In this document: one piece after another, positions 53,090 to 60,767 of the stretch
Layout: every line of letters begins with the position of its first letter
Position numbering within the stretch: position 1 is the first letter of the stretch
Assembly (NCBI GenBank): GCA_964016885.1
Contig: OZ024743.1
Coordinates: forward strand, 354,020,001 to 354,084,000
From: Eledone cirrhosa
Lineage: Eukaryota
Length of the DNA stretch: 64,000 nt
Reading direction: 5' to 3'
Position numbers and translations under genes: made by a program
The notes under the pieces: model-generated
What the model was told of the DNA's origin: nothing
Database searches by the model: none
Seen by the model: only the letters and a program-made list of their open reading frames with translations

Positions 53090-53132
53090 GTCATAGTTCT
53101 TTCGTCACACATTCTGTGACCTCTTCAGTGAC
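53090..53132 (-). ncRNA. Minimal hammerhead ribozyme in the PLE pseudo-LTR
   Basis: GUCA-CUGAAGA-G-GUCACA(GAAUG)UGUGAC-GAAA-GAAC-UA/UGAC. Confidence 0.75.
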
Positions 53133-53334
53133 TGGGGATTCCTTTCTTTGTTTCTGTGCCTCTCCTTTGTTCTGTCCTACGCCATTTTGTTTCTGTGTGT
53201 GTGTTGTGTGTGCTCAGTCTGCGCATGCGCCACATCCAGGTGTCTGTGTGTGTTTATGTTCATTTACTTATTTGTTTATTTACATGTTACTGGTTGGTTG
53301 TTTGTTCTATTTGTGTGTTGTTTTCATTTTGTCC

Positions 53335-56300
53335 TTAATTGTAAGTTGTGATGTTGCTGTTCCACTCATATTTTCTATTTAATTTTGGTTGTAATTCTTT
53401 TATGTTTATTGCCTCTGTAATTTGTCTAAACATTGCGTCTTTTCTGTGTGTAGATTCTATTTTTATTTCTATGTTCTCTAATTTACCCTTGTGTTCTATT
53501 TTAGCATGTTGGTAGAGTACAGATGATTCTTTACTATCTTGAAGGTCTCGCCAGTGTTCATTTATCCGTTCCCCTACACTACGAGCTGTCTCACCTATGT
53601 ACACTATATTTTTGTCTCTACATTGTCCTTCAGTACATCTTATGCTATACACTACATTTCTAGTTTTACAGTTAATAGGGGGGCTTATTTTACAGGTTAT
53701 ACATTTCTTATCTATACATGGAGGTCTTTGAAAAGGGTATGTCTTGCTAATAAGTGTTTTTACGGAGGTACCTGGTCTTTCTACTATCTTAATATTGAGT
53801 TTATGTTTATTTAGGGCCCTTCTAAATTTGTGAGCTAATTCACCTCTAGGGGTTGTATCGATGAACATTACACTCTGGTATTTATTGCTATCATACCATG
53901 AGTTTATTCTATTAGCCTTGTTCCTAGTTCTTTCTATTCTATTCCAAAATTTGCTCCTATACAAGGGGCAGGTCCCATTTATGTCATTATTTACCATTTT
54001 TCCCATTTGGTTCTGGCTCCTCTTTTCACTCTGATTTTATCTCTCTGATTGTAGCCAGAGAACTGCATACGGTGGATGAAGTGTTGTATGTGTCTCTCTA
54101 GTTCTTCGGGGTTGCACATGCGGGACACGTTTCTCATCACACGTACCAAATCCGCAATCAGTATGTTGATTTTGGTATGGTCCGAAACGGCCGATTTTCT
54201 GTGGATCAGATGTTTGGAAGTCATGGGTTTGGCATAATGGGAATGGAGGATTTGTTTTTTGTTGTTAATGGTATCTAACTAGAGCTCTGTGTCTAGTACA
54301 GGTAATCGATGGTTGGGGTGTTTACTTGGGTAGTCTATAGTAACTCTAATGCTCTGGTGGATGGAGTTTGCTATTTGCTGGATGCTTTCCATTGTGTTTT
54401 TCTCTAGTTCCTGACTGTTCTCTAGTGGGGGTGTCTTAACTACGATGTTTATATCATCAACGTAGCGGGAGTACATTATCAGGGTTAAGGGGTCTTCTAA
54501 TTGTTCTTTAAGTTTAAGTTTAAGTCTACTGTCCCACCATACCATGAATAAGTTAGCTATGTCGCCTGCAATGCTAACACCAATGGCTGCTCCTTCCTCT
54601 TGGGCATATGTTTTTCCATTAAATTTGAACATATGTTCCTTAAGGGTTAGTTTTATGCTGGCCCCTACCGCATGTGCAATCATTTTCTTCAGTTAATCGT
54701 GGTTTTCGGGTGTCCGTATGGCTCTGGTCCACCCGTTCCATCTATCTGTGTGGGTTTTCTTGGCCATTGAGGTAATGGTAGGTGGTCTGCCTCTTGCTGG
54801 TCTTGTAGGGCACAGGTTGCTAAGGTCATATGTGTCTAGGTAATTATTACTATAGGTAAGTTTAAGTAGGAGTCCCAGCTTACTGGTATCAATCCCACGG
54901 AACTCAACATTGCTCTCACTGATCATTTCTACGCATTTCTCCACAGCAAAATCCACGTCAATAGATGGATACAGGGACACAACATCCATACTACCTATTA
55001 TGCAGTTTGTTAGGTCCCTAGATCGGTTACTCACGCCGATTCTGCTGAGGAGGTCCTCCGTGCTGTCACATACATCTGGGGACATTTCAATGATGGGGCG
55101 TATGATCAGGGAGAGGAAGTAGGACAGTCTGTAGTTACTAGCAATGTTAGCTCCACAGACTGGCCGTGTTGGTGGTCCCGCGACAGGGTCACTGCCCGTT
55201 TTATGGTCTTTTTGAAGCACATACAACGCCGGCACGTCATTGTTCCAGGCCTGGAAGTTGTTGGCAGTCCTTTTGTTGGGCTGCATTATATTCGTCCACA
55301 TCACCATATGGGCATTGAGGGCTTTTTCTCTATCCTCATGCTCCTGTGGTGTTACCTCTCTTGTGTTAGTGATGTGGGGTTGCATTGCCTGGATGTAGTT
55401 TGGCAGGCTGTCAACCGACATTCTGCCAGACTTGTCTGTTGGAAAGCATGCTATCTCTCCATTACGCGAGCGCTGCATGAGCTTACGCAAGCCATTTGCA
55501 GATTTTTCTCCCAGTTGCTGGGCCTCCATTCTATTATGCTTCTTGCTATACTGTTCTATAATATTTCTAAGTTCGGATCTAGCTATACTAAATTGTGCTT
55601 CTGTTTGTTCATCGACCTGCGACGGCAATTGCGTGCGTTTGTTAAATGGTAAAGTCGTCGCGTGGACTCGTCGCAGGTCGAACGATTTATCGGAGGGATT
55701 ATAAAAAGTAGAGTTCCAGGCTGCTGCTTTATGTGTACTAGTGCTATTGTTATTGTTAGTTGTGTTGTTTCTATTTCTATTTCCACCAACAGCCTCATGG
55801 TTGTTTCTATGTCTCTCATAATTACTCCTGTCTCTTTCCACTGGCTCATTGTTGTTATCTACCCTATTTTGTGTGTCTGTGTGTTCGTCTTGGTTATTTT
55901 CTTTGTCCTTAGTCTCCCTTCTCCTTTTAATCCTATTACTTTCCCTTATTTCTGTGATTTCTGTGCTACTGTCATCACTTGTTTTCTGTGTCTGTGTGTT
56001 TGTTAAGATTGTGGTGGTGGTGAGAGGCATTGAATGTGTGTGTATTGTTGTTGTTGATGTGTGCTGTTGTTGATGTGTGCTGTTGTTGATGTGTGTTGTT
56101 GTTGTCTCCGTGTGTGTTATTATTGTTGTGTGTGTTGTTATTGTTGTTTGTGTCTGCGTGTCTGTTGTTGTTGTTTCTGGGTATGTTGTTATTGTTGTTG
56201 TTGTTGGTGTGTGCGTGTTGTTGTTATTGTTGTTTGTGTCTGTGTGTCTGTTGTTGTTGGGATGTGTGTTGTATATGTGTGTGCGTATATTGTTGCTTTT

Positions 56301-56938
56301 GTTTTTGTTTTTGTTTTTGAGGCTCCAGCGTAGTTTTGTAAATGATTTTTATATTTCTGACAGACAACTAATCATATTTACCTTCTTGAATGTCGCAAAT
56401 TTCGGGGGTAGACATAATACAGATATCTCATCGTCATCTATTACTGTGTTGCCGTATATATTTGTGTTGTTGTTGTTGTTGAACTCATCTGTTAATGAGG
56501 TGTCGGCCATATTTATACCGTCAATTTTGTCGGGATATCTATTGTTATTCTCTATAGTATCCTGATTTAGCTTTATCTGCTTAAGCCACTTTAGTTTCTT
56601 GTTAAAGTGCTTATCACATTCTTGAGTAATGTACTGTTCTTCAGGACGTATAAGGCTTATAAATATTAGTTTCTCTCTTGGTGTGGTGATCCTAGCTATT
56701 TCTTGTATTAGGTTAGGCTTATGTTTTTCTTGATGACTTAATTCTCTATAGATCTTCTTTTTTATGTTTAGAATTAATGTTCGTTTTAGCCTATCTGCTT
56801 GTTTTTTGGTGAGTTGTAATCTTCTTACGTCGGTGGTGATGGTGTTGGTGTAAACTCGGGACGAGGCACATTCTTTTATGAAGTGTAGTTGTCGAGATGT
56901 TATAGTTTTTCGTAGACAACAGAACTTGGTGGTTTTCA
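53335..56938 (-). pseudogene. PLE reverse transcriptase-GIY-YIG endonuclease ORF, disrupted
   Basis: N-terminal EISVLCLPPKFA and KLRW. RT motifs TDKSG, KDHK, TRPV, SMDVVSLYPSI, QEEGAAIG, RYVDD and LPVLD. Cys-rich linker CIDKKCITC. GIY-YIG NVVYSIRC...YIGET...R..EH...E...PKLN. In-frame stops at ~56340, 54693 and 54279; frameshifts at ~56760 and ~54000. Confidence 0.92.
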
Positions 56939-59187: not shown

Positions 59188-59704
59188 GGAAAGGAATACT
59201 CTTAAAAAAGACTCCAGCTGCATTTTCGAATTCTTTTCCGTATACTTTCACACACACACACACACACACACACACACACACACACACACACACACACACA
59301 CACACACACACACACACACACACACACACACACACACACACATATATATATATATATATATATATATATATATATATATAAGTATGTACACGTACATACA
59401 TATATGTATACAGACGTACAGTAATATGTATATACATACATACATGCACACATATATATATGTACGTATGGGTTTACCGAACATTTATTATAATGTTCGG
59501 TTTGTTTGTAAACAAACAGCCCGAATTAAGCCGTACAGTGTTCGGCAACCATCGTTGCCCTTTTGTTCAACACTGACAAAGGAACGATGAACTAGTTTCT
59601 AGCTTATTAGCTGTCATCAGCACCGTATACCTTCCTGACAGTCGATTGAACGTTTGAAAGTATATACTTTCCTTATGCATATTAACAGCTGAGCAACCTA
59701 ATTT

Positions 59705-59867
59705 GCATATCGAGTGAGTTAATCGGCCGGGCGCACCGAAAACGATAAATGGAAAAAATGAAATTTCATTTCTCACCCTTAGTATGCTGTTATTTAAATA
59801 TAAGTATGTAACTCACTCGATATGCCGTACTAAAAGTGGGAAATGAAATTTCATTTTTTCCATTTAT
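59705..59867. repeat. Double inverted repeat abutting a long (TA)n
   Basis: 59745-59786 pairs with 59826-59867; 59705-59721 pairs with 59809-59825. Confidence 0.8.
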
Positions 59868-59965
59868 ATATATATATATATATATATATATATATATATA
59901 TATATATATATATATATATATATATATATATATATATATATATATATATATATATATATATATAT

Positions 59966-60767
59966 TAGTTTTGCGAGGTATTTGATATGAAATCGTGTGT
60001 CGAAACAAATATTTTTATACTTGGGGAGGGTCATATTTGTGTAATAATATTACCAGAATTAATAACAGAACACACCCATTGTTTGGTTGGTTTTCGCTTC
60101 TTTGTCCTTTATATCGGTTAATTTAATTTATTCGGTCCTCAATGTTACCATTAACTGACCAACGGTCAAAAATACAAATACAATATAGACACAAACACAT
60201 ATATACAGTCTAACAAAGTTCTTTCGTTGCACATCTGCAACATCGTCAGTGGTGCTATTATGTTTCCTCCCGTTGCATTGTATACCTACGCCATCTTTAT
60301 TTAGTCTGTTTATTTATTTATTTATTTGTTTATTTTTTTTCTTCTCTGCGCATGCGTTTGCGTGTGTGTATAGTGTTTTGTTTGATGTGTGTTCGTGTTT
60401 GGATGACTGTGTATTGGTTATTGTATTCTATCTTAGTTTACTAGTGTGTGTTTATATGTGTTTGTTGTTATTGTGCTTGTGTATGTATTTATTTAATTAT
60501 TTATACTTCTCTTAGGTCAGTGTTGTTTGTTTGGGTGTTATTGTTATTCCATTCATTTTTTCTGTTTAGCCTTGGCCTTCTAAGTTCTATTTCGCTGGCC
60601 TCTCTGATTTGCCTATCTGCTGGGTCATTTCTCTGTTTAGATATGGTAACATTGGTAACATTGAGGACCGAATAAATTAAATTAACCGATATAAAAGTCA
60701 CAGAAGCGAAAACCAACCAAACAGTGAGTGTGTTCTGTTATTAATTCTGGCAATATTATTTCACAAA
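59966..60767 (-). mobile_element. Penelope-like element family 2, 3' fragment with a 115-bp inverted copy
   Basis: GIY-YIG C-terminus RNDPADRQIREASEIELRRPRLNRKNEWN is homologous to family 1 RKDAMFRQITEAINIKELQPKLNRKYEWN. Arms 60036-60150 and 60653-60767. Shared 3' tail ends at (TA)n. Confidence 0.85.
60212..60253 (-). ncRNA. Minimal hammerhead ribozyme (family 2)
   Basis: ACCA-CUGACGA-U-GUUGCA(GAUG)UGCAAC-GAAA-GAAC-UU/UGUU; stem I has one mismatch. Confidence 0.68.

What the first reader, a model, noticed from the sequence alone, without database searches (positions are those of the whole stretch)
53090..60253. Covarying atypical hammerhead shared by two divergent PLE families
Seen: family 1 CUGAAGA-G-GUCACA/UGUGAC-GAAA-GAAC-UA and family 2 CUGACGA-U-GUUGCA/UGCAAC-GAAA-GAAC-UU. 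Two stem II pairs differ compensatorily (C-G->U-A, A-U->G-C). The tolerant N7 and H17 positions vary. Both have one extra nucleotide after A9 and a non-palindromic AGAACU stem III. Inference: a selected structure representing a hammerhead variant that does not fit the simple palindromic-dimer model.
Basis: partly seen in the sequence, partly recalled or inferred. Interest (0 to 1): 0.75.

Follow-up and report, generated by a model that had tools for sequence, protein, structure and literature searches.

The report
Penelope hammerhead with mismatched pairing stem
This is the small hammerhead RNA motif already known from the ends of Penelope-type jumping genes, here in about 34,000 copies; its one unusual feature is that the stem predicted to join two copies carries two mismatches in most copies, which likely makes it a weak, partner-dependent cutter.

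Summary
The three motifs are there as described (cores at +57883, -53128, -60249), in the end repeats of two Penelope-like (PLE) families with 67% protein identity. Most of the claimed oddity is published: Cervera and de la Pena 2014 list the extra base between positions 9 and 10.1, a long helix II and covariation across families as standard. The two compensated pairs are one derived event inside family 2. What remains is the AA loop of helix III (AGAACU), absent from the 56 published examples by my reading. It is not decay: about 22,000 of about 34,400 genomic motifs have it. Sister subfamilies carry GA (4,130), AG (1,225) or a self-complementary AGAUUU (about 6,000). A dimer would hold a symmetric 2x2 A-A mismatch, predicted no weaker than the published AAUU palindrome. 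The dimer model therefore needs amending, not replacing. Copies run 160-270 nt past the predicted cut, none of 10 long arms stops at it, and many short copies start 52-71 nt upstream of the core, so inserted RNA was mostly uncut or re-ligated. Cleavage is untested. The scan noted the same motif class, copied uncut, in other genomes.

The parts
57879..57921 (+). Family 1 minimal type I hammerhead: stem I GUCA 57879-82 / UGAC 57918-21; core CUGAAGA 57883-89; extra G 57890; helix II 57891-96 / 57902-07; GAAA 57908-11; helix III segment AGAACU 57911-16; predicted cut after A57917
   Evidence: sequence; structure counts on alignment A1
53090..53132 (-). Second family 1 hammerhead in the inverted arm (loop 2 GAAUG); predicted cut between 53094 and 53093
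60212..60253 (-). Family 2 minimal hammerhead: core CUGACGA, extra U, helix II GUUGCA/UGCAAC, AGAACU, H17=U, weak stem I ACCA/UGUU; predicted cut between 60216 and 60215
52931..56942 (-). Long arm of the family 1 PLE insertion: 5'-truncated, frameshifted ORF (N-terminal part, RT, CX4CxxC linker, GIY-YIG endonuclease ending at 53335), 3' UTR, hammerhead, end about 160 nt past the cut site in (TA)n
   Evidence: 95% identity to a full unit from L346; ORFs; weak GIY-YIG match E=3.5e-4
56939..58148 (+). Inverted short arm of the same insertion (endonuclease part, 3' UTR, hammerhead, ORF start ATG at 58056, end about 60 nt further than the other arm = PLE 'tail')
   Evidence: 98% identity between arms over 1145 nt
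59943..60644 (-). 5'-truncated family 2 PLE copy: last codons of the ORF, 3' UTR, hammerhead, start of next ORF, end in (TA)n
60650..60767 (+). Short inverted fragment of the family 2 end, the second arm of that insertion
   Evidence: 94% identity to 60036-60150
57823..57831 (+). Conserved AA(A/G)ATGGCG motif about 55 nt upstream of the core; many short copies start just before it; likely near the transcription start (resembles a YY1 site, name recalled)
   Evidence: the start-site reading is inference
60289..60297 (-). The same motif (AAGATGGCG) in family 2

Best explanation
These are minimal type I hammerhead motifs in the end repeats of two related Penelope-like retrotransposon families, predicted to cut RNA only weakly and only when two copies pair through a third helix that here would hold a symmetric pair of A-A mismatches. 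Shown: sequence, copy numbers, place in the element, subfamily series, ends of copies. Inferred: a transcript starts about 60-70 nt upstream of the core; helices I and II fold in one copy; G15.2 and C16.2 cannot close over two bases, so an active core needs a second copy (the next unit of a tandem 4.1 kb on, or a second RNA, probably held by the element's own protein), giving A-U, G-C, A-A, A-A, C-G, U-A. That helix is marginal, so most RNA stays uncut: the ORF starts about 139 nt after the cut site, and reverse transcription begins 160-270 nt downstream of it and copies through the intact motif. Occasional cutting of tandem transcripts would release unit-length RNA that could be ligated into circles, as Cervera and de la Pena propose.
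For: Matches the published consensus CUGANGAH-G..C-GAAAN-palindrome-NUH in all but the loop; Oikopleura (AGAUCU) and Marsupenaeus (AGCGCU) have the same G-C-closed 2-nt architecture. Helix II 100% paired in 15 of 15 chosen copies, two pairs changed on both sides; all slid controls at most 43% paired against 93%. All four amplified helix III states keep symmetric closing pairs: AA about 22,165 (by subtraction), GR 4,130 with 100 of the first 100 GA, AG 1,225, G-NN-U 6,396 with 95 of the first 100 AGAUUU, which pairs fully with itself through G-U and is nested in AA-bearing family 2. Predicted dimer helix energy AGAACU +2.4 kcal/mol against AAUU +2.2 and AUAU +1.6, both published palindromes. 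A monomer with a 1-bp stem III costs about 5.5 kcal/mol per copy over the open form. Published PLE motifs: no cleavage as monomer, low as dimer or trimer; protein-assisted and not needed for insertion in the anole element. Copies end at two sites past the cut: 96 of 110 family 1 ends in the 160 and 220 bins, 56 of 66 family 2 ends in the 215 and 255-270 bins. 0 of 10 long arms that reach the upstream motif stop at the cut.
Against: No cleavage or RNA-end data: the two RNA runs laid gave 0 contigs, and contigs cannot show ends. AGAACU is the weakest of the 16 G-C-closed loops, so any change looks stabilising and the subfamily shifts are weak evidence for selection on the dimer; AA to GA and AA to AG are also plain transitions. 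In the energy model the AA dimer (-19.0) is less stable than two open monomers (-21.2), unlike GA (-22.1 against -20.2). The weakest form is the commonest (about 64%), and single changes to perfect palindromes never amplified (all pyrimidine-containing loops together 479 of 27,999). Family 2 stem I is reduced to two adjacent pairs in its youngest subfamilies. 8 of the 10 read-through arms came from loci picked for holding two motifs, which favours read-through. Lunse et al. 2017, the main test of such variants as dimers, could not be read.
Confidence: 0.6

Rival explanations
1. Protein-assisted monomer: the element's RT-endonuclease protein folds a single motif, with only A15.1-U16.1 closing a GAAC loop, so a palindrome is no longer needed and the loop drifts.
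For: The anole PLE motif cleaves only with protein. The loop has changed at least three times among subfamilies, and perfect palindromes did not spread. Axolotl motifs with a one-pair helix III cleave 6% as monomers.
Against: G15.2 stays paired to C or U at 16.2 in every amplified subfamily of this lineage, which matters only across two molecules; the one subfamily with C16.2U also has a palindromic AU loop. The monomer loop is costly in the energy model. The anole paper (parts 1-2 read) does not say whether the cleaving species is a monomer.
Confidence: 0.2
2. The motif no longer cuts in this lineage; it is kept as a folded 5'-leader element (protein binding, translation or RT positioning) or as a slowly decaying relic.
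For: Copies were made from RNA intact at the site; catalytic mutants do not affect insertion in vitro and no reads end at the site in the anole; weak stem I in family 2; weakest possible loop is commonest.
Against: The catalytic core letters and the NUH triplet are the same in both families while the flanks differ at about 44-49% of aligned sites; only the tolerant N7, the extra base and H17 (A, U, C; never G in a subfamily seen) vary. The core was partly fixed by my search patterns, but copies found by DNA similarity show the same.
Confidence: 0.15
3. Heterodimer: AGAACU pairs with a different RNA that carries the complement AGUUCU.
For: It would give six Watson-Crick pairs; none was observed.
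Against: UU-loop motifs are 2 of the first 100 of 280 NY-loop matches; no such subfamily exists. An antisense transcript of the inverted arm would pair with the whole motif and unfold it (inference).
Confidence: 0.03

Closest known systems
[quoted passage not shown]
   Same: Type I, in the pLTR; core CUGANGA + one extra base; G10.1-C11.1; helix II about 6 bp; helix I 2-5 bp; GAAA-N..N-UH; thousands of mostly single copies; covariation between families; pairs on opposite strands. Oikopleura AGAUCU and Marsupenaeus AGCGCU have the same G-C-closed 2-nt loop.
   Different: Loop 3 is AA (also GA, AG), so the dimer helix has two central purine mismatches. By my reading of the machine-extracted Fig. 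S3, 54 of 56 rows are fully self-complementary, Hydra has one central mismatch, Latimeria (3) has two, and none is G-AA-C. Extra base G in family 1 is outside the >80% consensus H (1 of 56 rows has G).
Poseidon element of Anolis carolinensis (PAc), Frangieh et al. 2024, PMC11167929 (parts 1-2 of 4 read)
   Same: Tandem units, two fixed copy ends inside the ORF start that define a tail, insertion into AT-rich DNA, template uncut at the hammerhead.
   Different: Here the ORF starts about 139 nt after the cut site, not within helix II; the tail is about 55-60 nt, not 30-40; the protein has a CX4CxxC linker (Neptune/Nematis type).
Small PLE hammerhead variants that cleave as dimers, Lunse, Weinberg and Breaker 2017 (title and citation seen in PMC6765202; paper not held, not read)
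   Same: By title and by the review's passage: short palindromic stem III, dimer cleavage.
   Different: Unknown whether a mismatched loop was among their variants; this limits the novelty claim.
Amphibian satellite/retrozyme hammerheads (axolotl HHR_Amex1), Cervera and de la Pena 2020, PMC7229834 (passages read)
   Same: One-pair helix III with a 4-nt loop, poor as monomer, efficient as dimer.
   Different: Loop is palindromic, loops 1 and 2 make canonical tertiary contacts, units are 330-350 nt non-coding repeats.

Membership tests
PLE minimal hammerhead (min-HHR) | Core CUGANGA ... GAAA ... UH in type I order | tested here: met
PLE minimal hammerhead (min-HHR) | One unpaired base between positions 9 and 10.1 | tested here: met
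   G (family 1), U (family 2); listed as standard in PMC4209133
PLE minimal hammerhead (min-HHR) | G10.1-C11.1 pair and long helix II | tested here: met
   6 bp, 15 of 15 copies paired
PLE minimal hammerhead (min-HHR) | Short helix I (2-5 bp) | tested here: met
   4-5 bp in family 1; 2 bp plus mismatch in family 2
PLE minimal hammerhead (min-HHR) | Complementary 15.2-16.2 | tested here: met
   G-C in 27,999 matches, G-U in 6,396
PLE minimal hammerhead (min-HHR) | Palindromic loop 3 when present | tested here: not met
   AA in the three window copies; AA, GA or AG in about 98% of G-C-closed motifs; met in the AGAUUU subfamily. Hence filed as a variant, not a plain member.
PLE minimal hammerhead (min-HHR) | Located in the pLTR of an RT + GIY-YIG element | tested here: met
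PLE minimal hammerhead (min-HHR) | Self-cleavage as dimer | not testable with these tools
C-terminal EN+ Penelope-like element | RT followed by C-terminal GIY-YIG endonuclease with CCHH | tested here: met
   YVDD, VVY..C-x4-C..YIG..H..H in both families; Pfam matches are weak and below cut-off: RVT_1 E=1e-4 and 5e-3, GIY-YIG E=3.5e-4
C-terminal EN+ Penelope-like element | Tandem or inverted arms, 5' truncation, tail | tested here: met
   4,083- and 4,147-nt tandem units, two fixed ends
Neptune / Nematis clade | CX2-5CxxC linker before the endonuclease | tested here: met
   CIDKKCITC and CTNRKCIIC; definition from PMC8557442 passages
Neptune / Nematis clade | RT phylogeny with reference elements (separates Neptune from Nematis) | not tested
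   no reference proteins fetched; DKG appears as DKSG and GxKF as PPKF
Rfam hammerhead families | Covariance-model match | tested here: not met
   no hammerhead among 62 matches at E<=10; none among the 150 of 194 shown for the whole window

The most novel reading that the evidence does not exclude
Helix III strength is a tuned dial: this lineage keeps its two-copy helix deliberately marginal (all four amplified states lie between -1.7 and +2.4 kcal/mol, while one-step perfect palindromes at about -5 never spread, and the AU palindrome spread only together with a weakening C16.2U), so that the ribozyme just behind the transcription start does not uncap the mRNA or destroy the RT template, and fires only in tandem or protein-paired RNA. 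The four natural subfamilies form a ready test series.
Probability: 0.2. Interest if true: 0.55.

Novelty: new variant of a known kind. Interest (0 to 1): 0.28.

Why it matters
The role of PLE hammerheads is open: they are kept across animals yet cut poorly and are not needed for insertion in vitro. A successful lineage with about 28,000 mismatched and about 6,000 wobble-palindromic copies shows that a perfect palindrome is not required for spread, and it offers four natural helix III states on nearly the same background to test whether dimer pairing governs cleavage. The motif, the extra base and the covariation are not new.

Tried and rejected
Extra nucleotide as a novelty: rejected, it is in the published consensus. 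AA loop as decay of a palindrome: rejected, it is the majority state in both families and in basal family 2 lineages. My interim reading that no palindromic subfamily exists (after) was wrong: those patterns required C16.2 and missed AGAUUU. Purine-only loops as proof of selection: not accepted, since both changes are transitions and AA is the weakest state. Wobble intermediate of helix II: GUCGCA/UGUGAC is 15 of the first 100 of 535 matches against 60 of the parent form and 1 GUUACA (counted by hand), which suggests a stepwise path, but the 4 such copies in the tree do not form a clade and CpG decay or A-to-G editing could produce them; left open. Apparent clusters of 5' ends at 218, 252 and 286 nt upstream: the 218 and 286 clusters are alignment stops at indels, homology continues (output partly cut); 252 was not checked; only the 52-71 cluster was kept. 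Paper searches with no hit: hammerhead + non-palindromic + stem III, double hammerhead + stem III + mismatch, hammerhead + dimer + imperfect palindrom + ribozyme; searches listed nothing on this variant (listings only). Lunse 2017 and Epstein 1991 were not held. Supplement file 1 of PMC4209133 was not searchable, and figures are not held; either may show such a loop. No covariance model was built: about one independent helix II event gives it no power.
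Full report
Observation. The window lies in a 3.0-Gb animal genome (G000:C4; earlier scan notes call it octopus-type, which I did not test). A core-plus-helix-II scan finds four hammerheads: +57883, -53128, -60249 and -38307. All letters, the two compensated helix II pairs and the cut after 57917 check out. The pattern ending in GAAAGAACT matches 22,261 times against 1 control match.

Context. The two family 1 motifs lie in the two arms of one insertion: a long minus arm (52931-56942) and an inverted short arm (56939-58148), 95% identical to a full 4,083-nt unit. 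The family 2 motif is in a truncated copy (59943-60644) with a small inverted end. [quoted passage not shown] One copy of each family shares 447 of 666 residues and 92 of 167 four-fold sites.

What is already published. Cervera and de la Pena 2014 (PMC4209133; text parts 1-2, supplement 2 parts 1-2) describe this class. [quoted passage not shown] Their consensus is CUGANGAH GNNNNN..NNNNNC GAAAN Palind NU H. So the extra base and the covariation are standard. Oikopleura and Marsupenaeus have the same G-C-closed 2-nt loop with palindromic AU and CG. In the extracted Fig. S3, I read 54 of 56 rows as fully self-complementary, two with mismatches, none with G-AA-C.

Covariation. On 15 hand-picked copies of different subfamilies, helix II is 100% paired, two pairs change on both sides in 3 rows each, and slid controls reach at most 43% paired against 93%. 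But trees built on flanks alone put GUUGCA/UGCAAC inside family 2, whose basal members keep GUCACA/UGUGAC (217 and about 75 sequences, abundant young types thinned in 58, many nodes weakly supported). It is one event. G-U wobble half-way forms are frequent (15 of the first 100 of 535) but not monophyletic. Stem I is 4-5 bp in family 1 and only two adjacent pairs in young family 2.

Helix III. With G15.2-C16.2 there are 27,999 motifs: 280 NY, 199 YR, 4,130 GR (first 100 all GA), 1,225 AG, and by subtraction about 22,165 AA. With G15.2-U16.2 there are 6,396, 95 of the first 100 being AGAUUU, a family 2 subfamily nested among AA copies that pairs fully with itself. GA marks a young family 1 subfamily and AG the oldest one (median flank distances 0.045 and 0.32; these include non-homologous flank in truncated copies). 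Predicted two-strand energies: AGAACU +2.4, AGAUUU +0.2, AGAGCU -0.4, AGGACU -1.7, against AAUU +2.2, AUAU +1.6, ACGU -1.7, AGAUCU -5.0 kcal/mol. So AA is the weakest of 16 loops, yet on a par with the weakest published palindromes. Other hammerhead families met in this genome have self-complementary segments (ACGU, ACUAGU, AUGCAU, AUAUAUAU), so the mismatch is particular to this lineage. No complementary UU-loop partner family exists.

Is it cut? Copies end at two sites beyond the predicted cut: 96 of 110 family 1 ends at about 160 or 220 nt, 56 of 66 family 2 ends at about 215 or 255-270 nt. Among 44 longer loci, 10 arms reach the upstream motif and all read through; none starts at the cut (8 of the 10 were picked as tandem loci). 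In 46 family 1 copies, 13 5' ends fall 52-71 nt upstream of the core, against 4 at 0-51 and 2 at 72-214; the junctions that I could view are real and lie just before an AA(A/G)ATGGCG motif shared by both families. I infer a transcription start there, with short copies made from uncut 5' ends. This agrees with the anole element, where the motif cuts only with protein, is not needed for insertion, and no reads end at the site (PMC11167929, parts 1-2). Cutting followed by ligation into circles would leave the same DNA pattern for the long arms, so cleavage is neither shown nor excluded. No RNA data bear on it.

Mechanism and verdict. Most likely (0.6) a weak, partner-dependent hammerhead whose two-copy helix III tolerates a symmetric purine mismatch; rivals are a protein-assisted monomer (0.2) and a non-cutting leader element (0.15). 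It works like a PLE min-HHR, meets the testable features except the palindromic loop, and is a modest new variant. The claim that the AA loop is not in print rests on Fig. S3 and three empty searches; Lunse et al. 2017 could not be read and may hold it. Other papers seen: PMC6765202, PMC7229834, PMC6155905 (passages), bioRxiv 10.64898/2026.07.22.740005 (part 1 of 5), PMC8557442 supplement (term search only). The names YY1 and NRF1 for the upstream motifs are recalled and come from no call.

Noticed in passing
window 38258-38312 (-): A fourth hammerhead, CUGAAGA-GGUCACAGCC/GGCUGUGACC-GAAA-UAUAUA-UA, with a 10-bp helix II, no extra base, 5-bp stem I and a perfect palindrome; it shares GGUCACAG with family 1. 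A relative is in L134.
   Followed up: partly
window 57781-57790 and 57823-57831 (+), 53220-53230, 60289-60297 and 60347-60356: Two motifs conserved upstream of the hammerhead in both families, GCGCATGCGC and AA(A/G)ATGGCG (resembling NRF1 and YY1 sites, recalled); short copies start between them, a likely internal promoter and start site.
   Followed up: partly
L345 (G000:C1:14381000-14390999): Head-to-tail array of near-identical 4,147-nt family 2 units, the two complete ones carrying the same frameshift, so the array was made from one broken copy.
   Followed up: no
window 1-27000: Large array of about 32-nt repeats (about 790 overlapping matches).
   Followed up: no
window 58226-58352, 59038-59244, 59745-59867: Three short palindromic elements next to the PLE ends; half of the first recurs at 60825-60898.
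   Followed up: no
L096:304 and 771 (+); L173; L174/L179; L126/L135: Other abundant hammerhead families with self-complementary helix III, among them a 467-nt tandem repeat (ACUAGU), a retrozyme-like family also in earlier scan notes.
   Followed up: partly
runs X6 and X8 laid on window 60150-60340: One contig in each run, under organism codes other than the best holders, carries the AGAUUUA form of family 2; whether these are related species or mixed samples is unknown.
   Followed up: no
L291 (metagenome), position 336 on the minus strand: Hammerhead-like core with extra U and a 6-bp G-C helix II followed by GGGCUC, without PLE protein nearby; not examined.
   Followed up: no
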